Positions 1,485 to 16,377 of a stretch of 16,377 nt of DNA are shown piece after piece. The stretch lies in assembly GCA_041570315.1 (NCBI GenBank), contig JBFFWJ010000018.1:1-16377 (forward strand). The letters are read 5' to 3'. The translations under genes were made by a program, and so were the position numbers. The notes under the pieces were generated by a model that had not been told where the DNA came from, did no database searches, and worked only from the letters and a program-made list of their open reading frames with translations. This DNA comes from Longimicrobiales bacterium. Lineage in GTDB: Bacteria; Gemmatimonadota; Gemmatimonadetes; Longimicrobiales; Gaopeijiaceae. The number at the start of each line of letters is the position of its first letter. The first letter of the stretch is position 1.

Positions 1485-1501
1485 GGGCGAGCGTCTCTGC
1501 C

Positions 1502-1837: not shown

Positions 1838-1845
1838 GGCACGCC

Positions 1846-3282: not shown

Positions 3283-3302
3283 CGGCTCCCGAAGGATTGA
3301 TC

Positions 3303-4607: not shown

Positions 4608-4641
4608 CGCTCACGATCGCGGACGAGGCCGGGAGCATCGA

Positions 4642-5040: not shown

Positions 5041-5053
5041 CGGGCGCACCGCG

Positions 5054-6922
5054 GTGATCTCCTCGTTCATGCGCGACCGGTCGATCCGGGTCCGCTTGCT
5101 CGTCGTCTTCGCGATCGTCGCGCTCGTTTCGGTGGGAACCGTGGTCTTCGTGGCCAACCGGCTCGGATCGGTCACGCTGGAGCAGCAGGCCTTCGATCGC
5201 CTCACGTCGGTTCGGGAGCTGAAGGGGCAACAGGTCGAGCGCTACTTCCGCACCATCCGGGATCAGGTGCTGACCCACTCGGAGAACCGCATGGTGGTCG
5301 ATGCGGCGCGGGAGTTCGCTTCGGCGGCGTCCGGCCTCCAGGGCGAGTTGAGGGCGCCCTCGGCCGATGAGCGCGATCTCGCGCTTCGCCTCTACTATCA
5401 GCAGGAGTTCCTGCCGAGGCTGCGGGAGCGCGTCGACGACGCGCGGCCCCTGTCCGAGCTTTGGCCGAGCGACCCCCTCGCTCGGTCGCTGCAATACCTG
5501 TTCATCAGCGCCAGCCCGTTCGAGGTCGGCTCGAAGCACCTGCTCGACGACTCGGGAGCGGGCACGCGGTACGACGTGGTGCACCGTCGATATCACCCGC
5601 TTCTCCGGAGCTTCCTGGAGCGCTTCGGCTACTACGACGTCTTCCTCGTCGACGCGGCCACGAGCCGGATCGTGTACTCGGTGTTCAAGGAGGTCGACTT
5701 CGGAACCTCTCTCGAGCGGGGACCCCACCGGAGCTCCAGCCTCGCGACGGCCTACCGGTCCGCTCGGGACTCGGGGCTCACGTCGTTCACCCGCCTCGAG
5801 GACTTCGAGCCGTACACGCCGTCCTACGGCGCCCAGGCCTCGTTCATCGCGTCACCCGTCTACGACGGAACCGAGATGATCGCCGTGCTGGTGTTCCAGC
5901 TTCCGCTCGATCGGATCAACGACATCATGACGAGCGAGCGGGCCTGGCGGGACGTGGGCCTCGGCGCGTCGGGCGAGGCCTACCTGGTGGGACCGGACCG
6001 ACGGCTTCGGACCGAGTCACGCTTCCTCGTGGAGGCGCGGGAGGAGTACCTTCGTGCCGTCGCAGCCGCCGGCGTGGACGAGGGCACGGTGAGGTCGATC
6101 GAGGCGCTGGGCAGCGCGGTGGGGTTGCAGCCGGTGGTGACGGAGGGCGTCGATCAGGCCCTTTCCGGGCTGTCCGGCGTCGGCCGGTTCCTCGACTACC
6201 GGGACGTGGAGGTCTTCTCCAGCTTCCGGCCCCTGGACATCGACGATCTCGACTGGGTGCTCATGAGCGAGATCGACGCGAGCGAGGCGTTGGCTCCGCT
6301 GACCGCGCAGCGCAGGCGCATGCTGCTGGTGCTCGCGGTGTTCCTCCCGCTGCTGGCCGCGCTCGCCTCGTGGTTCGCGGGGAACCTCGTCCGCCCCGTC
6401 CGGGCCCTGTCCCGCAGGGCGGAGGAGCTCGCCCGGGGAGACCTGGACCGAGAGGTCGACGTGTCCCGGGGAGACGAGATCGGGGAGCTCGCGCGGAGCT
6501 TCGAGGCGATGCGCGTCGCGCTGCGCGAGCTGGTCGATCGGCAGAACCGCTCCATCGAAGCGCTGTCGACCCCGCTCATCCCGATCCACGACGATGTCGT
6601 CGTGATGCCCCTGGTCGGCGAGCTCGACGAGGCCCGGTGTGACCGGCTCCGCGAGTCGCTCATGACCCAGCTGCACGCGAAGGGCGCGCGCTGTGCGATC
6701 CTGGACCTGACGGGGGTGCCGAGGCTGGACGACTCCGTCGCGCGGGGCCTCGTGCGCATCGCGCAGACGGCGCGGTTGCTCGGGGCCCGCGCGATCATCT
6801 CCGGGGTCCGCCCCGAGCTCGCCGCGCAGCTGGCCGACGGGGACATCGACACCCAGGGAATCTCGACCGTACGCACGTTGAGGGATGCCATCGACGCGGC
6901 GACGGCGCATGGACGCAGCTGA
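5054..6922 (+). CDS. Membrane-anchored sensor: TM1, periplasmic double-Cache (dCache_1-like), TM2, HAMP, then a C-terminal RsbR-type STAS domain
   Basis: TM1 is LLVVFAIVALVSVGTVVFV. The Cache modules show GYYDVFLVDAATSRIVYSVFKEVDFGTSL and GEAYLVGPDRRLRTESRF...DWVLMSEIDASEALAPL. TM2 is MLLVLAVFLPLLAALASWFAG. The HAMP domain reads PVRALSRRAEELARGDLDREVDVSRGDEIGELARSFEAMR. The STAS domain starts STPLIPIHDDVVVMPLVGELDEARCDR...ILDLTGVPRLDDSVA...IISGVRPELAAQLADGDID, very similar to the STAS domain of the next gene. The start could be 5054 or the ATG at 5069. Confidence 0.82.
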   Translation: MISSFMRDRSIRVRLLVVFAIVALVSVGTVVFVANRLGSVTLEQQAFDRLTSVRELKGQQVERYFRTIRDQVLTHSENRMVVDAAREFASAASGLQGELRAPSADERDLALRLYYQQEFLPRLRERVDDARPLSELWPSDPLARSLQYLFISASPFEVGSKHLLDDSGAGTRYDVVHRRYHPLLRSFLERFGYYDVFLVDAATSRIVYSVFKEVDFGTSLERGPHRSSSLATAYRSARDSGLTSFTRLEDFEPYTPSYGAQASFIASPVYDGTEMIAVLVFQLPLDRINDIMTSERAWRDVGLGASGEAYLVGPDRRLRTESRFLVEAREEYLRAVAAAGVDEGTVRSIEALGSAVGLQPVVTEGVDQALSGLSGVGRFLDYRDVEVFSSFRPLDIDDLDWVLMSEIDASEALAPLTAQRRRMLLVLAVFLPLLAALASWFAGNLVRPVRALSRRAEELARGDLDREVDVSRGDEIGELARSFEAMRVALRELVDRQNRSIEALSTPLIPIHDDVVVMPLVGELDEARCDRLRESLMTQLHAKGARCAILDLTGVPRLDDSVARGLVRIAQTARLLGARAIISGVRPELAAQLADGDIDTQGISTVRTLRDAIDAATAHGRS

Positions 6923-6923
6923 G

Positions 6924-6946
6924 GGACCGGTTTTCTCGCACGGTCC
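6924..6946. other. Short inverted repeat GGACCG(6924-6929)...CGGTCC(6941-6946) with an 11-nt loop, in the 48-nt gap before the globin-RsbR gene
   Basis: Read from the sequence. The stem is weak and no U-tract follows. It may be an attenuator or an RNA-processing site, or nothing. Confidence 0.15.
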
Positions 6947-6970
6947 GTAACCGCAAAGGGTTGAGTTGAC

Positions 6971-7867
6971 ATGTCGCAGAGACAGATGACGGATCCGGGT
7001 CACATCGACCACCGGGAGCTTCTGGCGCTCTACCGCATCTCCGCCGAGGACCTCCAGCGTATCCGGGCCTTCGGGGTCCAGGCCCAGCAGCGGATGGAGG
7101 AGCTGGTGGAACGCTGGTACTCCTGGCTGGAGGGGCTCCCGGACTACCAGGACTTCTTCAGCGATCCGGAGACGCTGGCGCGCGTGCAGAGGCTCCAGAA
7201 GGACTACTGGAATGTCTTCATGAGTGCCGCGGTGGATGACGACTACGTCGCCCGGCGCGTCCTGGTCGGCGAGGCGCACGCCCGGATCGGGTTGCCGCTG
7301 AACACGTATTTCGCCGGCATGAACATGTTTCAGGAGCTCTTCAGCGAGGTGGTGCGCGACGGCGAGTTCGAGGACTCGGAGCGTCAGGCCGCGCTCGACG
7401 CGGTCGTGAAGCTCCTGCACTTCGACACCGCGATCGTCGTCGACACGTACAACCATCTGGTCGAGCAGACGCTCACCGCTCAATCCCGGGCGCTGATGGA
7501 GATGTCGACGCCGGTGACGCAGATCTGGGAGAGCCTCCTCTTTCTGCCGATCGTGGGAATCATCGATTCGCGCCGGTCTCGAGACATCATGAACGCGACG
7601 CTGAGCAAGATCGCGGAGACGCAGGCGCGGGTGTTCATTCTCGACATCAGCGGCGTCGGCGTGGTCGACACCGCCGTGGCGAACCACCTCATCAAGATCA
7701 CCCGAGCGACCAAGCTCATGGGCTGTGAGACGACGATTTCGGGTGTCTCCCCCGCCATCGCGCAGACCATCGTGGACCTCGGGATCGACGTCGGTGAAGT
7801 CAAGACCACCGCGACCATGCGCGACGCTCTGGCGGACGCCGTGCAACTCGTCGGCCGAGACCGGTAG
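6971..7867 (+). CDS. rsbR: RsbR-type stressosome sensor: N-terminal globin-coupled-sensor (protoglobin-like) domain plus C-terminal STAS
   Basis: The N-terminus carries the globin-coupled-sensor signature, including the proximal-His motif: RRVLVGEAHARIGLPLNTYFAG (compare IG.VH.RIGL.P.WY in HemAT-type sensors). The C-terminal STAS (STPVTQIWESLLFLPIVGIIDSRRSRD...ILDISGVGVVDTAVANHL...ISGVSPAIAQTIVDLGID) matches RsbR. AAGGG lies upstream of the ATG. Confidence 0.85.
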   Translation: MSQRQMTDPGHIDHRELLALYRISAEDLQRIRAFGVQAQQRMEELVERWYSWLEGLPDYQDFFSDPETLARVQRLQKDYWNVFMSAAVDDDYVARRVLVGEAHARIGLPLNTYFAGMNMFQELFSEVVRDGEFEDSERQAALDAVVKLLHFDTAIVVDTYNHLVEQTLTAQSRALMEMSTPVTQIWESLLFLPIVGIIDSRRSRDIMNATLSKIAETQARVFILDISGVGVVDTAVANHLIKITRATKLMGCETTISGVSPAIAQTIVDLGIDVGEVKTTATMRDALADAVQLVGRDR

Positions 7868-7881
7868 CCGCCGGGCCGACC

Positions 7882-8373
7882 GTGACGCCCGAAGGCGGTT
7901 TCAGGATCCCGCTCCAGCTCGCGCAGGCATGCGTGGTGGCATCGATCCAGGTCGACCTGGACGATCGAGTGCTCGCCACCTTCCGCGAGGAGCTGCTGGA
8001 TCTCGTCCGGCGCTCGGGCGCCCGGGGCGTGATCCTCGATCTCTCCGGCGTGGCCGTGATGGACACCGACGAGTTCGGAGCCCTCAGGGACACCATGAGG
8101 ATGGCCCGTCTCATGGGCGCCACGTCGATCGTGTCGGGATTGCAGCCGGGCGTCGTCTCCGCGCTGATCGACCTGGGAGCGGACACGGACGGGGTTCTGG
8201 CGACGGCGACGCTGGACGACGCCTTCGCTCGCATGCGGGAGCTTCAGGCTCCGGAGCCCGCCTCGGATGAGGGCGCCGACCACGCTCCCTCGGTCGCCGC
8301 CGAGCTGGAGGCGACCGCTTCCGACGAGCCCGGACGTCCCGAACCGGAAGGCTCCTCGCGTGACGGCGCCTAG
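7882..8373 (+). CDS. rsbS: RsbS-type single-domain STAS stressosome scaffold protein
   Basis: IPLQLAQACVVASIQVDLDDRVLATFREELL...VILDLSGVAVMD...LMGATSIVSGLQPGVVSALIDLG aligns along its full length with B. subtilis RsbS, including the phosphorylatable Ser in DLSGV. It has an acidic C-terminal tail. The start is GTG. Confidence 0.88.
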   Translation: MTPEGGFRIPLQLAQACVVASIQVDLDDRVLATFREELLDLVRRSGARGVILDLSGVAVMDTDEFGALRDTMRMARLMGATSIVSGLQPGVVSALIDLGADTDGVLATATLDDAFARMRELQAPEPASDEGADHAPSVAAELEATASDEPGRPEPEGSSRDGA

Positions 8374-9466
8374 GGCGGTCAAGCGGATCCGGAGCGACCC
8401 GGACGTCAGCCACGCGGTCATCGCGGCGTCGGACTTCGCGCGCGGCCTCGATTTCAGCGAGCTGGACAGCCGGGCCATCGGCACGGTCGTGTCCGAGCTC
8501 GCCACGAACATCCTGAAGTACGCCGTGCACGGCCAGGTGACGATCGAGGAGGTGGGCTCGGGGGACCGCCACGGCATCCAGGTCACCGTGTCCGATCGCG
8601 GGCCCGGGATCGCGAACGTGCGGGAGGCGCTCCAGGATCACTTCAGCTCGAGCGGCACGCTCGGCCTCGGACTTCCCGGGGTTCGTCGCATGGTGGACGA
8701 CTTCGACCTGCAGTCCGAGGTGGGGCGGGGCACGACCGTCGTCGTGCGAAAGTGGAAGAGCCATGGGGCGTCGCGCACCCGTCGTGCGGGCATGCTGCAG
8801 GGCTCTCCCGGGAGCGCCGCGTTCGCCGAGCGGGGCACCGACCGGGGCAGCGAGACGTTCGAAGCCTCCGGTCACCCCGAAGGAGCGTTTCACGTCGTGC
8901 ACGTGAATCGTCCGTGCAGGGGTGAGCTCGTGAGCGGAGACGGCGTTCTCGTGAGCCGCGTGGAAGGGACCGTGCTGATCGTCGTGGTCGACGGGCTGGG
9001 GCACGGGAGAGAGGCCAACCTGGCTGCCAAGGCCGCGACGCGGCTGGTCCGCAAGGAGCCCATGCTCGACCTGGGGCACCTGATGATCCGGCTGGACGAT
9101 CGGCTCCGCGGCACGGTCGGAGCCGCGGTCTCCCTGTGCTCGGTGGATCTCGCTTCCGGTGCCGTGCGATACGCTGCCGTCGGGAATACGGTCCTGCGCA
9201 TCGAGGGCGAGCGGTCGCACAGGATGGCTGCGGCGGCCGGCACGGTGGGAGCCCGCCTCAAGCCGCCTCGAGTGCAGTCGGCCGCCCTCGGCAAGGGGGA
9301 GGTGCTCCTGATCCACACCGACGGGATCTCCGAGCGCCTGAGCCCGCAGGACTATCCCCAGCTCCGGTATCAGAGCCCGGAGACCGTGGCCGAGACGATC
9401 GTGGCGCGCTACGGGAAGCGGCACGACGACGCCACCGTCGTCGTGGCCAGGTTCGGCGGCGCATGA
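8360..9466 (+). CDS. Single ORF fusing an RsbT-type GHKL serine kinase (N-terminal, about 135 aa) to an RsbX-type PP2C phosphatase (C-terminal), joined by a low-complexity linker
   Basis: The RsbT part is IGTVVSELATNILKYA...VTVSDRGPGI...SGTLGLGLPGVRRMVDDFDL...TTVVVRKW. The RsbX part is LVSGDGVLVSRVEGTVLIVVVDGLGHGREANLAA...AVGNTVL...LLIHTDGISE...HDDATVVV (compare B. subtilis RsbX CGDSF...CAVADGLGSG...VGNVRF...IIHTDG...KDDLT). No in-frame stop separates the halves. The GTG at 8360 overlaps the rsbS stop by 14 nt. The six-frame ORF extends upstream to 8267. Confidence 0.78.
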   Translation: MTAPRAVKRIRSDPDVSHAVIAASDFARGLDFSELDSRAIGTVVSELATNILKYAVHGQVTIEEVGSGDRHGIQVTVSDRGPGIANVREALQDHFSSSGTLGLGLPGVRRMVDDFDLQSEVGRGTTVVVRKWKSHGASRTRRAGMLQGSPGSAAFAERGTDRGSETFEASGHPEGAFHVVHVNRPCRGELVSGDGVLVSRVEGTVLIVVVDGLGHGREANLAAKAATRLVRKEPMLDLGHLMIRLDDRLRGTVGAAVSLCSVDLASGAVRYAAVGNTVLRIEGERSHRMAAAAGTVGARLKPPRVQSAALGKGEVLLIHTDGISERLSPQDYPQLRYQSPETVAETIVARYGKRHDDATVVVARFGGA

Positions 9467-11148
9467 TCGAGCTCGGCACGATCTGGGGAGGAGCGGAGGG
9501 GGCCGTGCGGGACGCCCGTCGGAAGGTGCGGGTGACCCTCGAGCGCCTGACCGCCGACGACATGGTCGCGAGTCGGATCGCCTCGGTGACCTCTCAGCTG
9601 TTTCGCGCCCTGGATCGCGGCGCCGAGCCCGGGAGAATCGATGTCCGGCTCGATGACGCCGGGGCGGCGCCGATGCTCGTCCTCGACCTGGTCGGGGCGG
9701 GCGATGAGCTCGACGACGCCGTGGCCGAGCCCTTCTTCGACCGGATCTCGAAGGTGCTCGTGGACGGAGAGCCCGGCGTACGGCTGGGTCTGTACCTGGA
9801 TCTCGCCGTGGCGTCGGCGCTCTCCGAACGGCGCATCGCCGAGATGCGCGCCGTGATCGAGCAGAAGGGACGGGACGCGCTGATGCAGGAGCTCACGGTC
9901 AAGAACCGCGAGCTCCAGGAGTCGTTCGACAACCTCCGCCGGACCACGACGGCGAAGGAGCGCATGGAGAGCGAGCTCAACATCGGGCGCGACATCCAGA
10001 TGAGCATGCTGCCGCTCAAGTTCCCTCCGTTTCCCCACAGAACCGACTTCGCGGTCTTCGCGACCCTGGAGCCGGCGCGGGAGGTCGGGGGAGACTTCTA
10101 CGATTTCTTCCTGATCGACGAGGACCGGTTCTGCTTCTGCGTCGGAGACGTCTCGGGCAAGGGCGTGCCGGCCGCCCTCCTCATGGCGGTCACGAAGACG
10201 CTCATCAAGTCGCGCGCCACGAACGACTTCTCTCCCGCCAGCATCCTGACGCACGTGAACGACGAGATCTCGGAGAACAACGAGTCGGCGATGTTCGTCA
10301 CGCTTTGGCTCGGGATCCTGGACGTCAGCTCGGGTGACCTGGTGTACACGAACGCCGGTCACAACCCGCCCTACCTGAAGCGGGCGGGCGGCGAGCTCGT
10401 GCGGCTGGACGAGCGGCACGGCCCCGTGGTCGGCGCCGTGGACGGTCTCGTCTACTCCGAGGGCTCGGGCCAGCTGAGCGGTGGCGATGTCCTGTTCCTC
10501 TACACCGACGGCGTCACCGAAGCGATGGATCCCGCTGGACGGCTGTACGACGAGGACCGGCTCGTCTCGGTTCTGCAGTCGACGGACTTCGGCTCCGTGG
10601 ACGAGGTCGTCAAGGCGTCCACGGACGACGTGTGGCGCTTTCAGGCGGAGGCCGAGCAGGCCGATGACGTCACGGTGCTCGCGGTCGAGTTCATCGGCAG
10701 GGCAAGGGGCGTAGGCGATCTGCACGTCCTCGACCTGGGCATCCCGAACCGCCTGGAAGAGATCGACACGGTCAACCGGGCGTTCGACGAGTTCGCGGCC
10801 GAGCGCGGGTTGTCAGAGCGGGTCCGCCGAAGCATGAAGCTCGTGTTCGACGACCTGCTCAACAACGTCATGTCGTATGCCTACGAGGACGAGGCCGATC
10901 ACGAGATCCAGGTCCACGTCGAGCTGTCGTCGGACAGGCTCGCGGTCCGCATCAGCGACGACGGGCGTCCCTTCAACCCGTTCGGGCGAACCGCCCCGGA
11001 CACGGCCCTGACGCTGGAGCAGCGAGAGATCGGCGGGCTCGGCATCCATCTCGTCCAGAACCTGATGGACGAGGCTTCGTACACGCGACGCACCGATCGG
11101 AACGTGGTCGTCCTGGTGAAATACCTTTCAGACAACGCAGAGGAGTAG
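9463..11148 (+). CDS. Output-module fusion: unassigned N-terminal regulatory region, RsbU/SpoIIE-type PP2C phosphatase, then a C-terminal RsbW-type GHKL anti-sigma-factor kinase domain
   Basis: The ATG at 9463 overlaps the upstream stop (ATGA). PP2C motifs are present: ELNIGRDIQMSMLP, GGDFYDFF, CVGDVSGKGVPAALLMA, YTNAGHNPPYL, LFLYTDGVTEA, DDVTVLAVEF. The C-terminal kinase domain shows an N-box (DDLLNNVMSYA), G1 (ISDDGRPFNP) and G2 (GGLGIHLV). Comparable PP2C-kinase fusions exist, for example in the multidomain M. tuberculosis Rv1364c. Confidence 0.85.
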   Translation: MIELGTIWGGAEGAVRDARRKVRVTLERLTADDMVASRIASVTSQLFRALDRGAEPGRIDVRLDDAGAAPMLVLDLVGAGDELDDAVAEPFFDRISKVLVDGEPGVRLGLYLDLAVASALSERRIAEMRAVIEQKGRDALMQELTVKNRELQESFDNLRRTTTAKERMESELNIGRDIQMSMLPLKFPPFPHRTDFAVFATLEPAREVGGDFYDFFLIDEDRFCFCVGDVSGKGVPAALLMAVTKTLIKSRATNDFSPASILTHVNDEISENNESAMFVTLWLGILDVSSGDLVYTNAGHNPPYLKRAGGELVRLDERHGPVVGAVDGLVYSEGSGQLSGGDVLFLYTDGVTEAMDPAGRLYDEDRLVSVLQSTDFGSVDEVVKASTDDVWRFQAEAEQADDVTVLAVEFIGRARGVGDLHVLDLGIPNRLEEIDTVNRAFDEFAAERGLSERVRRSMKLVFDDLLNNVMSYAYEDEADHEIQVHVELSSDRLAVRISDDGRPFNPFGRTAPDTALTLEQREIGGLGIHLVQNLMDEASYTRRTDRNVVVLVKYLSDNAEE

Positions 11149-11156
11149 CACGACTC

Positions 11157-11489
11157 GTGAACATGTCGATGAGCGAGAGCGGCGGCATCACCGTGGTCCG
11201 GTTCGACGGGAACCTGGACACGAACACGGCACCCGAGGCGCAGGAACGGTTCGACGAGCTGGCGGGCCAGGGCGTGGGCAAGGTCCTCGTAGACTTCGAG
11301 AGGCTCGACTACATCTCGAGCGCCGGACTGCGCGTCCTCCTCGCGACCGCGAAGAAGCTGCGCTCGGGCGGCGGCAACCTTCGCCTCTGCAATCTCAACG
11401 AGACCGTCGCCGAGGTGTTCGAGATCTCGGGCTTCAGCACGATCTTCGCCGTGTTTCCCACGGAAGCCGAGGCGCTGGAGGGCTTCTGA
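11157..11489 (+). CDS. rsbV: Anti-sigma-factor antagonist (RsbV/SpoIIAA-type STAS), 110 aa
   Basis: ITVVRFDGNLDTNTAPE...VLVDFERLDYISSAGLRVLL...NLRLCNLNETVAEVFEISG carries the conserved phospho-Ser motif DYISSAGL. AGAGGAG sits 11 nt upstream of the GTG at 11157. An ATG at 11163 is an alternative start. Confidence 0.85.
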   Translation: MNMSMSESGGITVVRFDGNLDTNTAPEAQERFDELAGQGVGKVLVDFERLDYISSAGLRVLLATAKKLRSGGGNLRLCNLNETVAEVFEISGFSTIFAVFPTEAEALEGF

Positions 11490-11497
11490 GCGTCGAC

Positions 11498-12901
11498 GTG
11501 GGCGCGGTCCCGCGAGAGGCCGCGGCCGCGGTTCTTCCGGAGGAGTCCCGCGCCCGGTACTCGTGGGACCTCGTGGTTCTGTGCGCGGTCGTGGCGACCG
11601 GTCTGATCATCCCGTTCCAGATCGCGTTCCTCCGGCGCGTGGACGTGCTGGGCAGCGTCGCGGTGTACGTGCTCGATCTCGTGTTCCTCGTCGACATGAG
11701 GCTGAACCTGCGGACGTCCTTTCGGCGTGGAGGCTCCGAGATCCGGGATCGGTCCGAGATCGCACGGCACTACCGACAGGCAGGTTTCCGTACCGATCTC
11801 CTGGGCGTGATCCCCGTGGACCTGCTGGTCCTGGGATCCGGCGCGGCGTTGGGAGGGGTCCCGCTCGCGCTGCTCTTCCGGGTGAACCGGCTGCTCCGGG
11901 TCGCCCGAGCGCTGAGGGGCTTTCGACGCTGGGAGCGGCTCCGGTGGACCAACACCGGATACCTGAGAATCGCCAAGCTCCTGATCGGGGTCTTGCTGCT
12001 GATCCACTGGGTCGCGTGCGGCTGGTTCCTCGTGGCGGTGCTCGAGGGGTTTCCTGCGGATTCGTGGGTGGCCAAGGCGGGGTTGGAGAACGTGGATCGT
12101 GGCAGCCAGTACCTGCGCTCCCTCTATTGGGGCTTCGTGACCACCACGACGGTCGGGTACGGCGACATCACGCCGTCCAAGAACGCGGAGTACGCCTTCA
12201 CCGTGGTGGTGATGATCGTGGGCGCGTCGATGTACGCGCTCATCATCGGCAGCATCGCGTCGCTGGTCAGCTCGATCGACGCGGCGAAGACCGCGTTTTG
12301 GGAGCGGGTCGACGGGGTGGGTCAGTATCTCCGCGCTCGAGGCGTTCCGGAGCCGCTTCAGGAGCAGGTCCGCGACTACTACGAGTACGTCTGGGACCGG
12401 TATCGCGGGGCGGACGCGCGGCAGCTGCTCCGTGACGTCCCCGACTCGATCCGGCTCGAGGTGCTCTTTCATCTGGCGCACGAGCTGATCGAGCGTGTGC
12501 CGCTCTTCCGTCATGGGGACGTGGCCATGCGCAACGCGCTGCTCGCGGCGCTCGAGCCGCGCGTTTTCGTGGCGGGCAGCCACGTGGTCGGCGCAGGCGA
12601 GGTCGCGGACGGGCTCTATTTCGTGAGCAGCGGGCGGCTGGTCATCGTCGATCCGTCGGGCGAGCCGTCCTCGGGCGAGCTCGAGGCCGGTGACTACTTC
12701 GGGGATCTTTCCCTTCTTCTCGGGGAGCGCCGTACCTGTTCGGTGCGAGCCGTCACCCACAGTGACATCTTCTTTCTGCCCAGCGCGGAGTTCGAGCGCC
12801 TCAAGTCCCGCCATCCCGAGTTTCGCGAGGCGCTGCGTGAGATCGCGGCCGGCAAATCCGACAAGCTCGCGGAGTTGGTGGCGAAGGGCTGCATCCTCTA
12901 G
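11498..12901 (+). CDS. Six-TM S4 voltage-sensor-type K+ channel with C-linker and C-terminal cyclic-nucleotide-binding domain (SthK/MloK1/HCN-like)
   Basis: S4 has a regular Arg spacing (FRVNRLLRVARALRGFRRWERLR). The pore helix and selectivity filter read YWGFVTTTTVGYGDITP, and S6 follows. The CNBD beta-roll shows LYFVSSGRLVIV...GDYFGDLSLLLGERRTCSVRAV. The GTG at 11498 lies 9 nt after the rsbV stop. Confidence 0.88.
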   Translation: MGAVPREAAAAVLPEESRARYSWDLVVLCAVVATGLIIPFQIAFLRRVDVLGSVAVYVLDLVFLVDMRLNLRTSFRRGGSEIRDRSEIARHYRQAGFRTDLLGVIPVDLLVLGSGAALGGVPLALLFRVNRLLRVARALRGFRRWERLRWTNTGYLRIAKLLIGVLLLIHWVACGWFLVAVLEGFPADSWVAKAGLENVDRGSQYLRSLYWGFVTTTTVGYGDITPSKNAEYAFTVVVMIVGASMYALIIGSIASLVSSIDAAKTAFWERVDGVGQYLRARGVPEPLQEQVRDYYEYVWDRYRGADARQLLRDVPDSIRLEVLFHLAHELIERVPLFRHGDVAMRNALLAALEPRVFVAGSHVVGAGEVADGLYFVSSGRLVIVDPSGEPSSGELEAGDYFGDLSLLLGERRTCSVRAVTHSDIFFLPSAEFERLKSRHPEFREALREIAAGKSDKLAELVAKGCIL

Positions 12902-12910
12902 GAGCCTGCG

Positions 12911-15481
12911 TTGAACATCGTGATTGCGGACAGTCTGGTTCGGGAGACGCTGAGCCCGGAGCGGCAGTTCCACGGCATCCCGTCGAACCTGGGGGCCCGC
13001 GAGATCGCCCGGCTGATGGGCAGGGGCCGGGCCTACGGCGAGGGACCGTTGCCGTCCCTGGTCCGCGCGGCGGCGGAGCCGGGGGGGCGCACCGGTCTCG
13101 TGCTGCTACGTGAAGTGGCGTCCGCGGACGCGGCGTCCTCGTCGCAGGACCCGCTGTCCGACTGGGTCGATCCGGTCCGGTCCGTCGTCGACCGGGCCCC
13201 CACCTTGGATTGCCCCCGCGGCCGCATTCCGTCGCGGGCGTTGATCGAGGCGATCGCCGAGGTCGCCGGGGTCGACGAGACCGCCGTGGCGGACGGGCGC
13301 GCCGACCTCGGGTTCCTCGTCGTCGGCTGCCAGACGGAGAAGCGGATCCAGGCGATCGCGACATTCCTGCGCGTGGTGCTGGGCTTCGAGCGCGTCGCGG
13401 TGAGCCCTCACCTCGTCGGCAGCTCCACGGCCGAAGCGCACTACGCCGCCCTGCGGCACAACCTCCCACGCTCGGGGGTGCGCGTGCTGCTGGATCTGGC
13501 CGAGGCGGCCCGCTGGGTCGACCTCGACCCGGATGGCGCCGGGCTCGCGGGCGGCGCTCCCTGCGTGATCGATCCGGCCGAAGCGCGCGAGCAGATGGAC
13601 GACGACGCGCAGCGGATCGTTCAGCTGATCTGCATGCACTGGACGCGGGCGGAGCTGCGGGCGCTTGCCGGCGGCTTCAGCGGGAGCATGCTCTTCATCG
13701 CGGACGGGTGGAAGGGAGAGGCGCGTACCGAGCCGATGGTGCTCAAGATCGACGACTTCGCGCAGATGAGGCGCGAGCTCGATGGCTACCACCAGGTGAA
13801 GGACTTCTTCGGCAAGCACGTGCCGACGTTCGGGTACCCGGTGCGGCAGGGCGGTCTGCTCGGCGTCGGCATGGAGCTCGCGGCGATGGAAGGCCGTCCC
13901 ATGACCCTGCAGGATCACTTCGAGAAGGCGGAGACCGAGGGCGCGGTGGCCCATTTTCTCGCCCGACTCGAGAAGTCGTTGGACCTGCTGTCGGGAAAGC
14001 TGTACGGGAACACCCTCGAGCGGAGCAGCGTGGCGCCTTTTCGCAGCTTCGGTCTCCACGTGGAGCAGCAGCTCACCTGGCTGCGCGAGAACGCCACGAT
14101 CATCCTCGGCTACGTCGCGGAGATGGGGCTCTCCCTGGAGCGCGTCGACCTCGACCAGCTCGAGAACGTGGTCCGGCTGGTGAGCAGGAATCCGGATGCC
14201 GTGGAATCCGAAGTGTGTCTGCAGCACGGGGATCTGAACTTCGCCAACGTCATCTGCGACGATGGGGACAACGTCTGGTTCATCGACTGGACGCACAGCG
14301 GCGTGCACCCGCTGGAGCTCGACTTCGCGAAGCTCGAGAGCGACGCGAAGCTCGTCATGAGCAAGGACTTCGACCCCGACGACCTGCCGAGGCTCCGCGT
14401 CTTCGAGGAGTACCTGCTGAGCCAGAAGATCCCGGCGACGGCCGACGAGCTTCCCGACGCGCTCAAGTTCGCCAAGTGGGATCTGCGCTTCAGGAAGATC
14501 CTCGACGCCGTGCGTCTGATCAGGCGGTGTTGCTTCCGCCTCAAGAAGGACGACGACTGGCTGGTCTACCGGGTCGCTTTGCTGCGCTACGCCATGCATA
14601 CCCTCAGCTTCGACCAGCGGAGAGGCCGGGGGGAGTGCGACGAGACGCAGCTGATGTACGCGCTGTACTCGTGCGAGTCGCTCTCGCTGACGCTCGTCGC
14701 CGACGACTTCCACCTGAAGATCCGGGCCGAGCGGCCGGCGTCGTATCCCGAGCGGCAGCGGATCTCGATCGACGAATCGCTGTGGGTTCTGGACTGCGAG
14801 GAGTACGACCCGCCGTACCACGTCGATCCTGCGGTCCTGGAGGCGGGGCGCGACCGCCGCGACGACGGATGGGCGGATCCGGAGGACATCGATGCCGCCG
14901 CGCTCGCCGAGCGAGCGGCCCGGTTCCGCGACGGCGGCGGGCGCCCGCTCAACCCGCGTGGGCGGACGGGGATCGCGGGGCGCGGCCTGCTGGGGCTGTG
15001 GGGCGCCAACGCTTCGGTCGTGGGGGTGGTGCTGCGGACCAGCCGGATCACCGGGGAGCTGCAGATCCTGCTCGGGTCCCGAGAGGACGACACCGCGCTC
15101 GCGCTGCCCATGGGCTTCGTGCTGCCCGACGAGGAGCCGGAGCACGGGGTGCTGCGGGTGATGGAGGTCGAGACGGGATGGCGGCCGGGGAGCACGCCGG
15201 TTCCGCTCAGTGAAGGGTACGCCTACGATGCGCGCCAGACGGATCACGCCTGGGTCGAGCGTCGGGCGTACCTCTTCGATCCGGCCGAGGAGGAGGCCCC
15301 GGATCTCTTCGACCCGGCTGGCGACCTCGAAGAGGTGTCGTGGTGGCCGATGAGCATCGAGACCATGACCCGGGTTCCGGCGGGTCAGGCGCCGGTGATC
15401 CACGAGGCGCTGGGGGCGGCGCGCGCGGCCGGGCGAATCGACGCCGAGCTGGCTGAGCAGCTGATGCGGAGGGCCGTGTGA
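12911..15481 (+). CDS. 856-aa three-domain protein: an unassigned N-terminal domain of about 215 aa, an APH/choline-kinase-like (protein-kinase-like fold) phosphotransferase domain, and a C-terminal NUDT9-homology (ADP-ribose pyrophosphatase-like) Nudix domain with a degenerate Nudix box
   Basis: TTG start, with GGAG 6 nt upstream. Kinase motifs are present: a Gly-rich loop (ALAGGFSGSMLF), a Lys (MVLKID), a catalytic loop (LQHGDLNFANVI) and an Mg-binding IDW (VWFIDWTHSG). The NUDT9 signatures are LNPRGRTGIAGRGLLGLWGANA (compare NUDT9 [22 protein letters not shown]), GYAYDARQTDHAWVERRAY (compare GYVDDPRNTDNAWMETEA) and a C-terminal VSWW...APVIHEAL. The Nudix box reads GFVLPDEEPEHGVLRVMEVETGW, that is RE-x-x-EE changed to RV-x-x-VE. 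Confidence 0.8.
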   Translation: MNIVIADSLVRETLSPERQFHGIPSNLGAREIARLMGRGRAYGEGPLPSLVRAAAEPGGRTGLVLLREVASADAASSSQDPLSDWVDPVRSVVDRAPTLDCPRGRIPSRALIEAIAEVAGVDETAVADGRADLGFLVVGCQTEKRIQAIATFLRVVLGFERVAVSPHLVGSSTAEAHYAALRHNLPRSGVRVLLDLAEAARWVDLDPDGAGLAGGAPCVIDPAEAREQMDDDAQRIVQLICMHWTRAELRALAGGFSGSMLFIADGWKGEARTEPMVLKIDDFAQMRRELDGYHQVKDFFGKHVPTFGYPVRQGGLLGVGMELAAMEGRPMTLQDHFEKAETEGAVAHFLARLEKSLDLLSGKLYGNTLERSSVAPFRSFGLHVEQQLTWLRENATIILGYVAEMGLSLERVDLDQLENVVRLVSRNPDAVESEVCLQHGDLNFANVICDDGDNVWFIDWTHSGVHPLELDFAKLESDAKLVMSKDFDPDDLPRLRVFEEYLLSQKIPATADELPDALKFAKWDLRFRKILDAVRLIRRCCFRLKKDDDWLVYRVALLRYAMHTLSFDQRRGRGECDETQLMYALYSCESLSLTLVADDFHLKIRAERPASYPERQRISIDESLWVLDCEEYDPPYHVDPAVLEAGRDRRDDGWADPEDIDAAALAERAARFRDGGGRPLNPRGRTGIAGRGLLGLWGANASVVGVVLRTSRITGELQILLGSREDDTALALPMGFVLPDEEPEHGVLRVMEVETGWRPGSTPVPLSEGYAYDARQTDHAWVERRAYLFDPAEEEAPDLFDPAGDLEEVSWWPMSIETMTRVPAGQAPVIHEALGAARAAGRIDAELAEQLMRRAV

Positions 15482-16284
15482 CGGGTTCGCTCCTGCCCGC
15501 GGAGCGCGACGCGCTCGAGCGCTTCCGGGCCGACCTCCTCGAGCCGGCGAGGCCGGACGCCGACGAGCGCGCGACGCTGGCGAGCCACGGGGGCGATCCG
15601 GCGCTCGAGGAGCGCGCGTGGACCACCTTCGTCCTGCGGACCGTGCTCCTCGCGGGACGACGGGTGCGAGCCGGGACGCCGGCGCTGCTGCGGTTGAAGG
15701 GCGATGGCTCGCCGTCGACCGAGCTGGAGCGGCAGGTCGAGGAGGAGATCGGGGCTGCGCTCGGGGCATTCGCGCCGGAGGCGGTGCTCGTGGGTGAAGA
15801 GACCGGTGGCCGCCTGGGCGCCGCTCGTTGGGCGCTCAGCGTCGACCCCATCGACGGGACCTGGGCGTTCCTTTCCCACACGGAGACGTTCTCCGTGGTG
15901 ATCACCCTCTTCCGGGATGGGCGGCCCTACCTCGGAGTCGTCGGGAGTCCCCTGCTCGGTGAGGTCGGATACGCCGTTGCCGGCGGGACCACCCGGCTGG
16001 TGCGGCTGGACCTCTTCGGTGAGGGCGACGAGGCCTGCTCCCTCCCCCTCGCGGATCGCGATCCGCAGAAGGTGCTCGTTCACCTGCACCCCTCTCCGGC
16101 CGGCTCGAGGCTGATGGCCGCGATGTTCGGCGCCTGGGCCCGAGGCCGCGTCCGTATGGTGCGCGCGCCGGGCGGGTCGCCGTCGTGGGGCCTGCTCGAG
16201 GCGGCCCGAGGGCACTTCACGTACGTGAACGAGTGGGCCAGATCCCCGGCGGATCCCTGGGATCTGGCCGCGGGGGTCCTGCTC
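15478..16284 (+). CDS. Inositol-monophosphatase-family phosphatase (IMPase/SuhB/CysQ-like). It appears truncated or joined at its C-terminus.
   Basis: The GTG at 15478 overlaps the upstream stop (GTGTGA). IMPase motifs are present: GDGSPSTELERQVEEEI, VLVGEETGG, WALSVDPIDGTWAFL...FSVVITL...PYLGVVGSP, and GGSPSWGLLEAARGHFTYVNEW...PWDLAAG. The ORF has no stop inside the window, so it is absent from the supplied ORF track. After WDLAAGVLL the homology switches to MscS (next feature). Confidence 0.72.
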
Positions 16285-16377
16285 GCCATGTTGCGTCCGT
16301 TCAAGCCCGGGGACTACATTTCGGGCGCCGGCACCGAGGGTAGCGTGCGCGAGATCGAGCTCTTTACGACCTTGCTC
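16264..16377 (+). CDS. MscS-family mechanosensitive channel fragment (end of TM3 and start of the beta-domain). It is in frame with, and fused to, the IMPase-like ORF.
   Basis: DLAAGVLLAMLRPFKPGDYISGAGTEGSVREIELFTTLL aligns residue for residue with E. coli MscS [41 protein letters not shown]. The upstream hydrophobic TM1/TM2 that MscS requires is absent. This stretch has more T-ending codons (ttg, cgt, att, ggt, ttt) than the rest of the window. Confidence 0.55.
   Translation, partial: MAAGVLLAMLRPFKPGDYISGAGTEGSVREIELFTTLL

What the first reader, a model, noticed from the sequence alone, without database searches (positions are those of the whole stretch)
11498..16284. Candidate signalling module downstream of a stressosome: CNBD K+ channel, kinase-NUDT9H protein and IMPase-family phosphatase, all translationally coupled
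Three genes follow rsbV with gaps of 9 nt, 10 nt and a 4-nt overlap (GTGTGA). They are therefore almost certainly co-transcribed with the partner-switching module. Together they look like a ligand-making or ligand-sensing set: an ion channel with a nucleotide-binding gate, a kinase fused to an ADPR-binding domain, and a phosphomonoesterase of the IMPase/CysQ family, whose members dephosphorylate nucleotide or sugar phosphates such as pAp and inositol-1-P. One reading is that a stress input (stressosome) controls formation and removal of a phosphorylated ADPR-like or other nucleotide signal that gates the K+ channel. The logic resembles eukaryotic TRPM2, where channel gating depends on NUDT9-H, but here it is split across separate genes. 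No nucleotide cyclase is present in the window. The channel's phosphate-binding cassette is FGD...GERRTCSVRA rather than the canonical FGE...PR[AS]A, so the ligand may not be cAMP or cGMP.
Basis: inference. Interest (0 to 1): 0.75.

Follow-up and report, generated by a model that had tools for sequence, protein, structure and literature searches.

The report
Bacterial ADP-ribose-sensing kinase module with channel
Behind a bacterial stress-sensing operon sits a gene set, conserved across about ten phyla, built around a kinase fused to an ADP-ribose-binding domain like the one that gates the human TRPM2 channel; it looks like an undescribed NAD-derived signalling pathway that often includes ligand-gated ion channels.

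Summary
After rsbV come a CNG/HCN-type K+ channel (11498-12901), an 856-aa kinase-NUDT9H protein (12911-15481) and an IMPase-family phosphatase (15478 onward). The gaps are 8 nt and 9 nt, and the last two genes overlap by 4 nt.

The kinase protein has three domains:
- a nicotinamidase/isochorismatase fold that lacks its catalytic Cys;
- an intact APH-like kinase;
- a NUDT9 domain whose Nudix box is degenerate in the same way as in human TRPM2, while the ADPR-contact Asp and Arg are invariant.

In 66 related loci from about ten phyla:
- the IMPase follows the kinase directly in 43 of 53 informative loci;
- RsbV and/or PP2C-RsbW is present in 47 of 66;
- a CNBD membrane protein is present in about half. 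It is usually this K+ channel, once an MscS-CNBD protein and once a SulP-CNBD protein.

A HopF-like ADP-ribosyltransferase (window 4642-5040) and an amtB-glnK-glnA-SPFH block also recur.

Best reading: a partner-switch-controlled, NAD/ADPR-linked kinase/phosphatase signalling cassette, with CNBD channels as frequent effectors. That a phospho-ADPR-like ligand gates the channel is not excluded, but it is unproven.

The last 92 nt of the window are foreign (MscS-like) and truncate the IMPase gene. A sibling contig shows the complete IMPase and a fourth coupled gene (TrkA_N).

The parts
11157..11489 (+). RsbV-like STAS protein (anti-sigma-factor antagonist type) carrying the DYISSAGL phospho-serine motif. 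It lies immediately upstream of the module.
   Evidence: Pfam STAS, E 3e-25; sequence. An RsbV gene lies directly upstream of the kinase-Nudix gene, or of the channel that precedes it, in 24 of 49 loci with at least 2 kb of upstream flank.
11498..12901 (+). CNG/HCN-type K+ channel of 467 aa: six TM segments, a TTVGYGD selectivity filter, a C-linker and a CNBD with the PBC FGD...GERRTCSVRA.
   Evidence: Pfam Ion_trans + cNMP_binding. Full-length match to LliK 5v4s (E 8e-69), SthK, CNGA and HCN. PBC comparison across 28 locus channels.
12911..13642 (+). Kinase-Nudix protein, domain 1: isochorismatase/nicotinamidase fold without the catalytic Cys. The T-D-x-C-V motif reads T-E-K-R-I here, so the domain is probably a pseudoenzyme that binds or regulates.
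13643..14710 (+). Kinase-Nudix protein, domain 2: APH/TCAD9-type protein-kinase-like domain with all catalytic residues intact.
   Evidence: Pfam TCAD9 80.1 bits and APH 40.3 bits. K279, D441, N446 and D459 are conserved in 113 of 113 homologues. PDB relatives are only weak: macrolide and spectinomycin phosphotransferases and RIO2.
14711..15481 (+). Kinase-Nudix protein, domain 3: NUDT9-homology domain (cap + core) with a degenerate Nudix box, GFVLPDE-EPEHGVL-RVMEVETGW.
   Evidence: Profile against PDB: NUDT9 1q33 at E 1e-24 and TRPM2 from several species at E 1e-23 to 1e-17. The Glu of the RE pair is present in 0 of 113 homologues, and the first Glu of the EE pair is variable. D773 and R775 align with hTRPM2 D1431 and R1433 (PMC6759353).
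15478..16285 (+). IMPase-family phosphatase, first 269 of 316 codons. The GEE and DPIDGT metal-binding motifs are present, as is the start of WDLAAG. The gene is cut short by the foreign tail.
   Evidence: Pfam Inositol_P. The complete gene is in L001 5522-6472. Best PDB relatives are IMPase, HisN and SuhB. It lies within 400 nt downstream of the kinase gene, on the same strand, in 43 of 53 loci.
16286..16377 (+). Foreign tail, not part of the module. It encodes an MscS beta-domain-like peptide fused in frame to the IMPase. It is either an assembly chimera or a strain-specific rearrangement.
   Evidence: Identity with L001 ends at 16285. Pfam MS_channel_2nd, E 8e-6. No source was found in any fetched locus.
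9463..11148 (+). PP2C phosphatase fused to an RsbW-like serine kinase (HsbR-like, without a receiver domain). It is the presumed writer and eraser of RsbV phosphorylation.
   Evidence: Pfam SpoIIE + HATPase_c_2. A 561-aa gene is called on the sibling contig L068. It is conserved next to RsbV in most loci.
5054..9466 (+). Stressosome-type input genes: dCache-HAMP-STAS (5054-6922), protoglobin-STAS RsbR (6971-7867), RsbS (about 7933-8373) and an RsbT kinase-PP2C fusion (8360-9466).
   Evidence: Pfam and gene calls on L068. The same block is present in about 15 loci, including Armatimonadota and deltaproteobacteria. Other loci carry dCache-PAS-PP2C sensors or hybrid histidine kinases instead.
4642..5040 (+). 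HopF/AvrPphF-ORF2-like ADP-ribosyltransferase-fold protein of 132 aa. It is a candidate NAD+-consuming enzyme of the system.
177..4607 (+). amtB (177-1484), PII/glnK (about 1502-1837), glnA (1801-3282, start uncertain) and an SPFH/Band-7 gene (3195-4607, start uncertain). This block is linked to the kinase locus in many phyla.
   Evidence: Pfam. Co-location occurs in Gemmatimonadota, Acidobacteriota, Gamma- and Deltaproteobacteria, Planctomycetota, Bacteroidota and Myxococcota.

Best explanation
The three genes are the conserved output end of a partner-switching signalling operon.

The hub is the 856-aa protein. An active APH-like kinase is flanked by two ligand-binding pseudoenzyme domains that together mirror the two halves of NAD+:
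- a nicotinamidase-fold domain without its catalytic Cys;
- a NUDT9-homology domain that keeps the ADPR-contact residues but has lost the Nudix-box glutamates, as in human TRPM2.

The IMPase-family phosphatase that almost always follows it is the kinase's antagonist. All characterised members of that family act on small sugar or nucleotide phosphates. The pair therefore most likely writes and erases a phosphate on a small NAD-derived (ADPR-like) molecule, or the kinase is switched allosterically by such a molecule. A HopF-like ADP-ribosyltransferase encoded in the same operon is the likely NAD+-consuming source.

Variable sensors (a stressosome here; PAS/dCache-PP2C proteins or hybrid histidine kinases elsewhere) act through RsbV and PP2C-RsbW on this cassette. 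CNBD-bearing membrane proteins (here a K+ channel, plus a TrkA_N membrane protein in Gemmatimonadota) are frequent accessory effectors. They couple the signal to ion flux, in a genomic setting tied to ammonium assimilation (amtB-glnK-glnA).

Shown: domain identities, residue conservation and loss, gene linkage.
Inferred: the substrate, the direction of control by RsbV, and any gating of the channel by the product.
For: - Tight coupling of the genes. A fourth coupled gene is seen on the sibling contig.
- The family is full length and highly conserved: 347 hits, with more than 50% identity over the whole length, and 87 representatives at E<1e-30 in the 1.84-billion library.
- In 66 genome loci from about ten phyla, the IMPase lies within 400 nt downstream on the same strand in 43 of 53 informative loci and is nearby in six more. 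RsbV and/or PP2C-RsbW occurs in 47 of 66. RsbV lies directly upstream of the kinase gene where the channel is absent, in 12 loci.
- In one locus the IMPase is replaced by a DSP-PTPase, so a phosphatase partner is kept.
- Kinase catalytic residues are conserved in 113 of 113 homologues. The Glu of the Nudix RE pair is present in 0 of 113.
- The alignment with NUDT9 and TRPM2 shows R-V-l-x-x-E opposite REFGEE and RILRQE. It also shows an invariant D-x-R opposite hTRPM2 D1431 and R1433. Proteins carrying the TRPM2-type Nudix box bind ADPR but do not hydrolyse it (PMC4974056), and D1431 and R1433 contact ADPR (PMC6759353).
- Three different membrane scaffolds carrying a CNBD sit beside the pair: a Kv/CNG-type channel, an MscS protein and a SulP protein. 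In all, 30 of 66 loci hold a CNBD ORF.
- Input modules vary while the output end stays constant.
- No cyclase and no sigma factor appear among the conserved neighbours.
Against: - No biochemical evidence exists for any component.
- The kinase has no close characterised relative, so a protein substrate cannot be excluded.
- The IMPase cannot be assigned to a substrate subfamily.
- About a third of the loci, including several with full flanks, lack RsbV/PP2C-RsbW.
- The ART is found in only 14 of 66 loci, and a large soil clade of ART homologues has no conserved neighbours.
- The channel is missing from about half of the loci. Its PBC keeps the canonical Arg-Thr, and its closest solved relatives are LliK and SthK, known from the literature as cAMP-gated channels.
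- Shared synteny within Gemmatimonadota inflates the raw counts.
Confidence: 0.5

Rival explanations
1. This is an operon of convenience. The channel is an ordinary cAMP/cGMP-gated K+ channel used for K+ homeostasis under stress. The kinase-NUDT9H/IMPase pair does something separate, such as control of the NAD/ADPR pool or of nitrogen metabolism. The proteins share a promoter but not a ligand.
For: The channel is a full-length homologue of LliK and SthK and keeps the PBC Arg-Thr. It is absent from about half of the kinase loci. Channel remnants in L015 and L023 show that it can be lost while the pair is kept.
Against: Three unrelated membrane scaffolds that share only a CNBD recur beside the pair. 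The Glu of FGE is replaced systematically in this clade. No cyclase appears among the conserved neighbours. The channel occupies the same slot, between RsbV and the kinase gene, in several phyla.
Confidence: 0.25
2. The 856-aa protein is an ADPR-regulated protein kinase, or a kinase of ADP-ribosylated protein. It phosphorylates a protein target such as the channel, RsbV, GS or PII, or it phosphorylates the ADP-ribosyl group that the HopF-like ART attaches to a protein. The IMPase acts on an unrelated metabolite.
For: The protein-kinase-like fold gives weak RIO-type hits as well as APH hits. An ART that in its known relatives modifies proteins lies in the same operon. Partner-switching systems work through protein-protein and protein-phosphate switches. 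The cassette is linked to GS and PII, which are regulated by covalent modification in other bacteria (established knowledge).
Against: The gene is almost always adjacent to, and often translationally coupled with, an IMPase-family enzyme, and no member of that family is known to be a protein phosphatase (family knowledge). The best Pfam and PDB similarities are to small-molecule kinases of the APH type.
Confidence: 0.15
3. The genes encode housekeeping enzymes: an active ADP-ribose pyrophosphatase that removes free ADPR, and an inositol- or histidinol-phosphate phosphatase. The genes merely happen to lie next to a stress operon.
For: JGI annotates the family as 'ADP-ribose pyrophosphatase'. 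The IMPase gives partial NCBIfam hits to HisN and CysQ.
Against: The Nudix box lacks the Glu of the RE pair in 113 of 113 homologues and the first Glu of the EE pair is not conserved. That pattern abolishes hydrolysis in TRPM2 NUDT9H chimeras (PMC4974056). The NCBIfam scores lie far below the equivalog cut-offs. Fusion to an intact kinase and conserved synteny with signalling genes across phyla do not fit housekeeping.
Confidence: 0.05
4. The cluster is an anti-phage or conflict system that depletes or signals through NAD+, as suggested by the TCAD9 label and the ART-fold protein.
For: The Pfam TCAD9 hit comes from a family defined in NTP-dependent conflict systems (PMC7159879). ART-fold and Nudix domains are common in NAD-linked defence systems (PMC7159879).
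Against: PADLOC gives no hit for the ART, kinase-Nudix, IMPase, TrkA_N or SPFH proteins. The chromosomal context with amtB-glnK-glnA and stressosome genes is stable across phyla. No mobile-element or ternary-system partners were seen. The protein sequence is highly conserved rather than diversifying.
Confidence: 0.05

Closest known systems
Human TRPM2 NUDT9-H domain (an ADPR-binding, non-hydrolytic Nudix domain that gates a fused cation channel)
   Same: It has the NUDT9 cap + core fold (profile E about 1e-21 to hTRPM2). The Nudix box has lost the same glutamates (RILRQE against R-V-x-x-x-E). The adenine-stacking Asp and the phosphate-binding Arg (D1431, R1433) are conserved. It is used as a sensor attached to an effector.
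   Different: The domain is bacterial. It is fused to a kinase and a pseudo-nicotinamidase, not to a channel. The channel is a separate gene, is K+-selective and carries a CNBD rather than MHR or NUDT9H sites. ADPR binding has not been tested here.
Partner-switching systems with non-sigma outputs (Pseudomonas HptB-HsbR-HsbA; stressosome RsbRST with alternative output modules)
   Same: It has an RsbV/HsbA-type STAS protein and a PP2C + RsbW-type kinase fusion like HsbR. Upstream lie a stressosome or hybrid histidine kinases. There is no sigma factor in the operon.
   Different: The genes that follow are not a sigma factor, FlgM or a diguanylate cyclase. They are a kinase-NUDT9H protein, an IMPase and CNBD transporters. 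This output was not found in the literature searched.
Bacterial cyclic-nucleotide-gated K+ channels LliK and SthK
   Same: The architecture matches over the full length: six TM segments, a TVGYG filter, a C-linker and a CNBD. E values are 8e-69 and 9e-62. The PBC Arg-Thr is kept.
   Different: The FGE glutamate is Asp here and is L, V or H in orthologues from other phyla. The Ala after the Arg-Thr pair is Cys. The gene is embedded in a partner-switch and NAD-linked operon, and the ligand is untested.
Bifunctional NAD kinase/NADP phosphatase MJ0917 and CysQ-type 3'(2'),5'-bisphosphate nucleotidases (IMPase-family enzymes acting on ribose phosphates of adenine nucleotides; from established knowledge)
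   Same: An IMPase-family phosphatase is paired with a kinase that handles an adenine dinucleotide. This is a precedent for a write/erase pair on the ribose of an NAD-type molecule.
   Different: The kinase here has an APH/PKL fold, not a NadK fold. The IMPase scores far below the CysQ and HisN equivalog cut-offs. The substrate is unknown.
HopF2/AvrPphF ORF2 type III effector ADP-ribosyltransferases
   Different: It has only 132 aa, no secretion signal region and no chaperone gene. It is encoded in a chromosomal signalling operon of environmental bacteria, so its role is presumably intracellular.

Membership tests
CNG/HCN-type cyclic-nucleotide-gated K+ channels (LliK/SthK) | Six-TM Ion_trans core with a K+ selectivity filter T-V-G-Y-G | tested here: met
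   Pfam Ion_trans, E 8e-32. TTVGYGD at residue 217, conserved as TVG[YF]GD in 27 locus orthologues.
CNG/HCN-type cyclic-nucleotide-gated K+ channels (LliK/SthK) | C-linker plus C-terminal CNBD, alignable over the full length | tested here: met
   phmmer to 5v4s covers residues 16-451 at E 8e-69; SthK covers 24-464.
CNG/HCN-type cyclic-nucleotide-gated K+ channels (LliK/SthK) | Canonical phosphate-binding cassette F-G-E ... R-[ST]-A | tested here: inconclusive
   The Gly, Arg and Thr are present, but the Glu is Asp and the Ala is Cys. In orthologues the Glu position is D, L, V or H, and it is F in the MscS-CNBD protein of L032.
CNG/HCN-type cyclic-nucleotide-gated K+ channels (LliK/SthK) | Binding of cAMP or cGMP, and gating by it | not testable with these tools
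   This needs ITC or DSF and flux or patch-clamp assays.
NUDT9-type ADP-ribose pyrophosphatases | NUDT9 cap + Nudix core fold | tested here: met
   Pfam NUDT9_N + NUDIX. Profile against 1q33: E 1e-24 over positions 14-243.
NUDT9-type ADP-ribose pyrophosphatases | Catalytic Nudix box GX5EX7REUXEEXGU | tested here: not met
   The box reads RVMEVE. The Glu of the RE pair is present in 0 of 113 homologues (V in 100, I in 8). The first Glu of the EE pair is variable, and the second is E in 85 and D in 12.
NUDT9-H type ADPR sensor domains (as in vertebrate TRPM2) | Degenerate Nudix box with the ADPR-contact residues kept (hTRPM2 D1431, R1433) | tested here: met
   R-V-l-x-x-E aligns with RILRQE. D773 and R775 are invariant and align with D1431 and R1433 (PMC6759353, PMC4974056).
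NUDT9-H type ADPR sensor domains (as in vertebrate TRPM2) | Covalent fusion to the channel that it gates | tested here: not met
   The domain is fused to a kinase. The channel is a separate upstream gene.
APH/protein-kinase-like phosphotransferases | ATP-binding Lys, HGDxxxxN catalytic loop and a metal-binding Asp (IDW) | tested here: met
   K279, H439-G-D441, N446 and D459 are conserved in 113 of 113 homologues. Pfam APH scores 40.3 bits against a cut-off of 23.2.
Pfam TCAD9 (ternary-complex-associated domain 9 of NTP-dependent conflict systems) | Score above the Pfam gathering threshold | tested here: met
   80.1 bits against a cut-off of 40. The best stretch covers only profile positions 300-429 of 429.
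Pfam TCAD9 (ternary-complex-associated domain 9 of NTP-dependent conflict systems) | Genomic context of a ternary conflict or defence system | tested here: not met
   PADLOC gives no hits. The neighbours are RsbV/PP2C-RsbW, an IMPase, CNBD channels and amtB-glnK-glnA.
Isochorismatase/nicotinamidase cysteine hydrolases | Three-layer alpha/beta isochorismatase fold | tested here: met
   [not shown]
Isochorismatase/nicotinamidase cysteine hydrolases | Catalytic Cys in the T-[DE]-x-C-V motif | tested here: not met
   The motif reads T-E-K-R-I. The position is Arg in 106 of 113 homologues. The mapping is by motif, not by structural superposition.
IMPase superfamily (Mg2+-dependent phosphomonoesterases) | Pfam Inositol_P match plus the metal-binding motifs GEE, DPxDGT and WDxAAG | tested here: met
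   Pfam 89.1 bits for the complete L001 copy. VGEETG, VDPIDGT and WDLAAG are visible in the translation.
IMPase superfamily (Mg2+-dependent phosphomonoesterases) | Assignment to a substrate-defined subfamily (SuhB, CysQ, HisN or FBPase) | tested here: not met
   All NCBIfam equivalog scores (59 bits or less) are far below the cut-offs of 228-379.
RsbV/RsbW/PP2C partner-switching modules | STAS antagonist with a phosphorylatable Ser, an RsbW-type HATPase_c_2 kinase and a PP2C phosphatase | tested here: met
   STAS with DYISSAGL. SpoIIE + HATPase_c_2 fusion.
RsbV/RsbW/PP2C partner-switching modules | A sigma factor as the sequestered partner | tested here: not met
   No sigma factor gene is in the window, and none was recognised among the neighbour clusters shared by many loci. 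Not every cluster was annotated.
HopF/AvrPphF ADP-ribosyltransferases (small protein at 4642-5040) | ART fold closest to AvrPphF ORF2, with the functionally required Arg and acidic residue | tested here: met
   [not shown]

The most novel reading that the evidence does not exclude
The kinase-NUDT9H protein phosphorylates ADPR, or a related NAD-derived nucleotide made with the help of the HopF-like ART. The product is a previously unknown bacterial second messenger that the IMPase removes. It is read by the atypical CNBDs, which lack the FGE glutamate, on K+, MscS-type and SulP-type membrane proteins. This would be a split, prokaryotic counterpart of ADPR/TRPM2 signalling that links stress sensors and nitrogen status to ion flux.
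Probability: 0.15. Interest if true: 0.92.

Novelty: new variant of a known kind. Interest (0 to 1): 0.72.

Why it matters
ADPR sensing through a catalytically dead NUDT9 domain is so far described in the vertebrate TRPM2 channel. This family is a widespread bacterial protein that shows the same degeneration of the Nudix box. It is wired to an active kinase, a pseudo-nicotinamidase, a dedicated phosphatase, an ADP-ribosyltransferase and ligand-gated transporters, all under stressosome or partner-switch control.

If the biochemistry follows the genomics, three things result:
- a new NAD-derived signalling route in bacteria;
- a defined non-sigma output for stressosomes in many phyla, which is a long-standing gap;
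- testable candidate ligands for CNBDs that lack canonical cNMP contacts.

The recurrent linkage to amtB-glnK-glnA also suggests an unexplored connection between NAD/ADPR signalling, K+ flux and ammonium assimilation.

Tried and rejected
- A profile of the kinase domain against the PDB gave only marginal APH and RIO hits, so no substrate can be inferred.
- The TrkA_N membrane protein has no PDB relative by sequence.
- The IMPase could not be placed in a substrate subfamily.
- PADLOC found no defence-system membership. The channel CNBD alone weakly resembles the CNBDs of Pycsar effectors.
- Literature searches found no description of the fusion or the cluster. The terms were TCAD9; NUDT9 + partner-switching; stressosome + cyclic nucleotide + K+ channel; NUDT9 + isochorismatase + kinase; and anti-sigma antagonist + Nudix + IMPase + CNBD. 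The eLife paper on ternary conflict systems mentions neither TCAD nor NUDT9 in its main text.
- The promoter and terminator scans found nothing in the gene junctions.
- Seeding a metagenome scan with the ART protein showed that only the closest ART relatives sit in kinase loci. A soil clade of 38 loci has no conserved neighbours, so I rejected the idea that the ART is an obligate core component.
- I looked for the origin of the foreign 92-nt tail among all fetched loci and within the window, and found none.
- I considered reading the first large ORF cluster (26 loci) as a new gene. I set it aside as probably antisense or overlapping ORFs of conserved GS and SPFH genes in GC-rich DNA; this was judged from coordinates, not tested.

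Full report
**1. The observation**

The window is about 68% G+C, and its + strand is packed with genes.
- rsbV (11157-11489, Pfam STAS) is followed after 8 nt by a 467-aa gene (GTG at 11498, ending at 12901).
- After a further 9 nt comes an 856-aa gene (TTG at 12911 with GGAG 6 nt upstream, ending at 15481).
- A third gene starts at a GTG at 15478 that overlaps the preceding TGA by 4 nt.

Everything else in the description is correct.

Pfam gives Ion_trans + cNMP_binding for the first gene. For the second it gives APH/TCAD9 + NUDIX, with NUDT9_N in the precomputed hits. For the third it gives Inositol_P.

The window holds no cyclase. Its other genes are amtB, PII, glnA, SPFH, a small ART-fold gene, dCache-HAMP-STAS, protoglobin-RsbR, RsbS, RsbT-PP2C and PP2C-RsbW. 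The scan of 4400-16377 found no promoter-like site. Its six terminator-like sites (3.2 expected) all lie inside coding sequence, so none falls in a junction.

Two corrections matter.
- Position 16284 is not a gene end. The third ORF is open to the end of the window.
- A Logan contig (L001) that is 99.92% identical over window 9957-16285 diverges from the window exactly there. The last 92 nt of the window encode an MscS beta-domain-like peptide fused in frame.

In L001 the IMPase is complete at 316 aa. It is followed, with a 4-nt overlap, by a 428-aa membrane protein with TrkA_N domains, then by LemA and DUF2207 genes. Related Gemmatimonadota genomes show the L001 arrangement. The tail of the window is therefore a chimera or a strain-specific rearrangement. 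Its source contig appears to be JABAOE010000396.1.

**2. The three proteins**

*Channel.* It aligns over its full length with the bacterial CNG-type channels LliK (5v4s, E 8e-69) and SthK, and with CNGA and HCN channels. It has a TTVGYGD filter, a C-linker and a CNBD. In the phosphate-binding cassette the Arg-Thr pair is canonical, but FGE reads FGD.

Across 28 channels from related loci the Glu position is Asp in Gemmatimonadota and several other groups. It is Leu, Val or His in Planctomycetota, Myxococcota and deltaproteobacteria, while the Arg is always kept. At the level of the clade it is real.

*Kinase-NUDT9H protein.* It belongs to a tightly conserved full-length family. There are 347 hits, mostly of about 860 aa and 50-84% identical. 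The 1.84-billion-protein library holds 87 representatives at E<1e-30, and it also holds two-domain variants without the Nudix part.
- C-terminal domain. It is NUDT9-like: a family profile matches NUDT9 1q33 at E 1e-24 and TRPM2 from four species at E 1e-23 to 1e-17.
  - The Nudix box reads GFVLPDE-EPEHGVL-RVMEVETGW.
  - Over 113 full-length homologues the Glu of the RE pair is never present (V in 100, I in 8). The first Glu of the EE pair is variable, and the second is E in 85 and D in 12.
  - In the alignments this R-V-l-x-x-E lies opposite REFGEE of NUDT9 and RILRQE of human TRPM2.
  - Proteins with the TRPM2-type box bind ADPR but do not hydrolyse it (PMC4974056).
  - The D-x-R that stacks the adenine and binds the alpha-phosphate in hTRPM2 (D1431, R1433; PMC6759353) aligns with D773 and R775, which are invariant.
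- Middle domain. It keeps every kinase catalytic residue in 113 of 113 sequences (K279, HGD441, N446, D459). Its only relatives in the PDB are weak APH-type and RIO-type matches.

The protein is therefore an active kinase flanked by two probable ligand-binding pseudoenzyme domains. Their ancestral ligands, nicotinamide and ADP-ribose, are the two halves of NAD+.

*IMPase.* It has the GEE, DPIDGT and WDLAAG motifs. It cannot be assigned to the SuhB, CysQ, HisN or FBPase subfamilies.

**3. Conservation of the neighbourhood**

A scan of one genome per GTDB species returned 66 loci. They come from Gemmatimonadota (the closest, at 84% and 81% identity), Acidobacteriota, Acidimicrobiia, Planctomycetota, Alpha-, Gamma- and Deltaproteobacteria, Myxococcota, Desulfobacteraceae, Bacteroidota, Verrucomicrobiota and Armatimonadota. 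I searched them by tblastn with the window's proteins.
- IMPase. It lies within 400 nt downstream on the same strand in 43 of 53 informative loci. It overlaps the kinase gene's 3' end in one more and lies within about 2 kb in five others. In one locus without an IMPase (L065) a DSP-PTPase takes its place.
- RsbV and/or PP2C-RsbW. They occur in 47 of 66 loci. In 12 loci from several phyla RsbV lies directly upstream of the kinase gene with no channel between them.
- Channel. It sits between RsbV and the kinase gene in at least 20 loci and occurs elsewhere in others. An HMM of the CNBD finds a CNBD ORF in 30 of 66 loci.

The other CNBD carriers are informative. L032 encodes an MscS channel with a CNBD (FGF...PRRES) next to the IMPase. 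L040 encodes a SulP-STAS-CNBD transporter directly after the IMPase. Three unrelated membrane scaffolds thus share only the CNBD.

L015 and L023 keep mere remnants of the channel gene. TrkA_N follows the IMPase only in Gemmatimonadota.

Inputs vary. Some loci carry a full stressosome block, some a dCache-PAS-PP2C sensor, and some giant hybrid histidine kinases with SBP, PAS or GAF domains. Variable inputs with a constant RsbV-kinase-IMPase end argue that this end is the output of the partner switch.

Clustering of all other ORFs in the loci found no cyclase and no sigma factor among the recurrent neighbours. It did find amtB, PII, glnA and SPFH genes in 13-19 loci from seven or more phyla. It also found a protein of about 133 aa in 14 loci.

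**4. The small protein**

The window copy is at 4642-5040, between the SPFH gene and the dCache-HAMP-STAS gene. Elsewhere the gene lies directly after the IMPase or directly before the kinase gene.

The invariant R28 aligns with the Arg of the SVYR motif of 1s21. The nearly invariant E110 lies within one residue of an Asp of 1s21 in the HMM alignment. If the deposited chain is numbered two residues ahead of the native protein, these are AvrPphF R72 and D174. HopF2 ADP-ribosyltransferase activity depends on R71 and D175 (PMC8150971).

A reciprocal metagenome scan seeded with this protein gave a mixed result. The closest relatives lie in kinase/IMPase loci. A more distant soil clade has no conserved neighbours. 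The ART is therefore an associated component, not an obligate one.

**5. Mechanism**

*Shown:*
- a conserved cassette of RsbV, PP2C-RsbW, the kinase-NUDT9H protein and a phosphatase;
- an intact kinase;
- a NUDT9 domain with binding residues but without the catalytic glutamates;
- a Cys-less nicotinamidase fold;
- an ART-fold protein and CNBD transporters that recur nearby.

*Inferred:*
- The kinase and the IMPase form a write/erase pair on a small phospho-ester. IMPase-family enzymes are known to act on small molecules only, and the closest families to the kinase are small-molecule kinases.
- The molecule is NAD-derived and ADPR-like, or else such a molecule switches the kinase allosterically.
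- RsbV~P/RsbV controls the cassette.
- The CNBD channel is an effector.

I put 0.5 on this general model. The evidence is consistent with it but does not demonstrate it, and I put about 0.15 on it.

*Rivals:*
- The channel is an ordinary cNMP-gated channel that merely shares the operon (0.25).
- The protein is an ADPR-regulated protein kinase or a kinase of ADP-ribosylated protein (0.15).
- The genes encode housekeeping enzymes (0.05). The Nudix box and the synteny contradict this.
- The cluster is a defence system (0.05). PADLOC gives no hit, and the chromosomal context beside nitrogen-assimilation genes is stable.

**6. Comparison with what is known, and novelty**

The system works most like vertebrate TRPM2 NUDT9-H sensing and like partner-switching pathways with non-sigma outputs (HsbR/HsbA type). 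It is a member of neither. The NUDT9H domain is fused to a kinase rather than to a channel, and no sigma factor, FlgM or diguanylate cyclase output is present.

It fails the catalytic tests for NUDT9 and for isochorismatase. It passes those for APH-type kinases and for the IMPase superfamily. It passes the Pfam TCAD9 threshold, but it lacks a conflict-system context.

Full-text searches found no description of the fusion protein or of the cluster. I rate it a new variant of a known kind: a partner-switch signalling operon with a new, NAD/ADPR-linked output. It could prove categorically new if a new messenger is demonstrated.

**7. Verdict**

Interest is 0.72.

Noticed in passing
window 16286-16377: The last 92 nt do not match the otherwise 99.92%-identical sibling contig L001. 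They encode an MscS beta-domain-like peptide fused in frame to codon 269 of the IMPase. This is either a chimeric assembly of JABAOE010000396.1 or a strain-specific rearrangement. One related locus (L032) carries an MscS-CNBD gene next to its IMPase.
   Followed up: partly
[not shown]
   Followed up: yes
window 177-4607 (+); also L004, L009, L035, L037, L043, L047, L048, L058, L062 and L064: An amtB-glnK(PII)-glnA-SPFH block lies next to the kinase-NUDT9H locus in at least seven phyla. This hints at a functional link between the cassette and ammonium assimilation.
   Followed up: partly
L001 6469-7755 (just beyond the window end in the sibling contig): A fourth translationally coupled gene encodes a 428-aa membrane protein with TrkA_N (RCK/NAD-binding) domains and no recognisable K+ filter. 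It is conserved after the IMPase only in Gemmatimonadota and has no PDB relative by sequence.
   Followed up: partly
window 8360-9466 and 9463-11148 (+): Two consecutive fusion proteins carry the same two domains in opposite order, and their genes overlap by 4 nt. The first is an RsbT-like kinase followed by PP2C. The second is PP2C followed by an RsbW-like kinase. The operon also encodes both a dCache-HAMP-STAS protein and a protoglobin-STAS RsbR-type protein.
   Followed up: no
L065 6631-12353: In a Chromatiaceae MAG the kinase-NUDT9H gene (37% identity) is preceded by a protein with a major-vault-protein shoulder domain in place of SPFH. It is followed by a DSP-PTPase ('Swiss Army Knife' type) in place of the IMPase. 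These are non-homologous replacements in the same positions.
   Followed up: partly
L015 2991-3269; L023 9544-9939: Short remnants of the CNBD channel gene lie between RsbV and the kinase gene. This suggests that the channel gene decayed recently while the rest of the cassette stayed intact.
   Followed up: no
L009 12552-14918: In an Acidobacteriota MAG the IMPase position is taken by a 788-aa paralogue of the kinase protein. It shows 24% identity over residues 110-569, which cover the isochorismatase-like and kinase parts. Stand-alone two-domain variants of about 600-650 aa also exist in the representative library.
   Followed up: no
L040 13644-15203; L032 5207-7234: Transporters other than K+ channels carry a C-terminal CNBD in kinase loci. 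They are a SulP-STAS-CNBD protein (its PBC region reads TGELGAF...RSPYTA) and an MscS-CNBD protein (FGF...PRRES).
   Followed up: partly
kinase-Nudix protein residues 140-141 (window about 13328-13333): A Cys-His pair (G-C-H-T) just before the lost catalytic-Cys position is conserved in 109 and 98 of 113 homologues respectively. It may form a new ligand or metal site in the pseudo-nicotinamidase domain.
   Followed up: no
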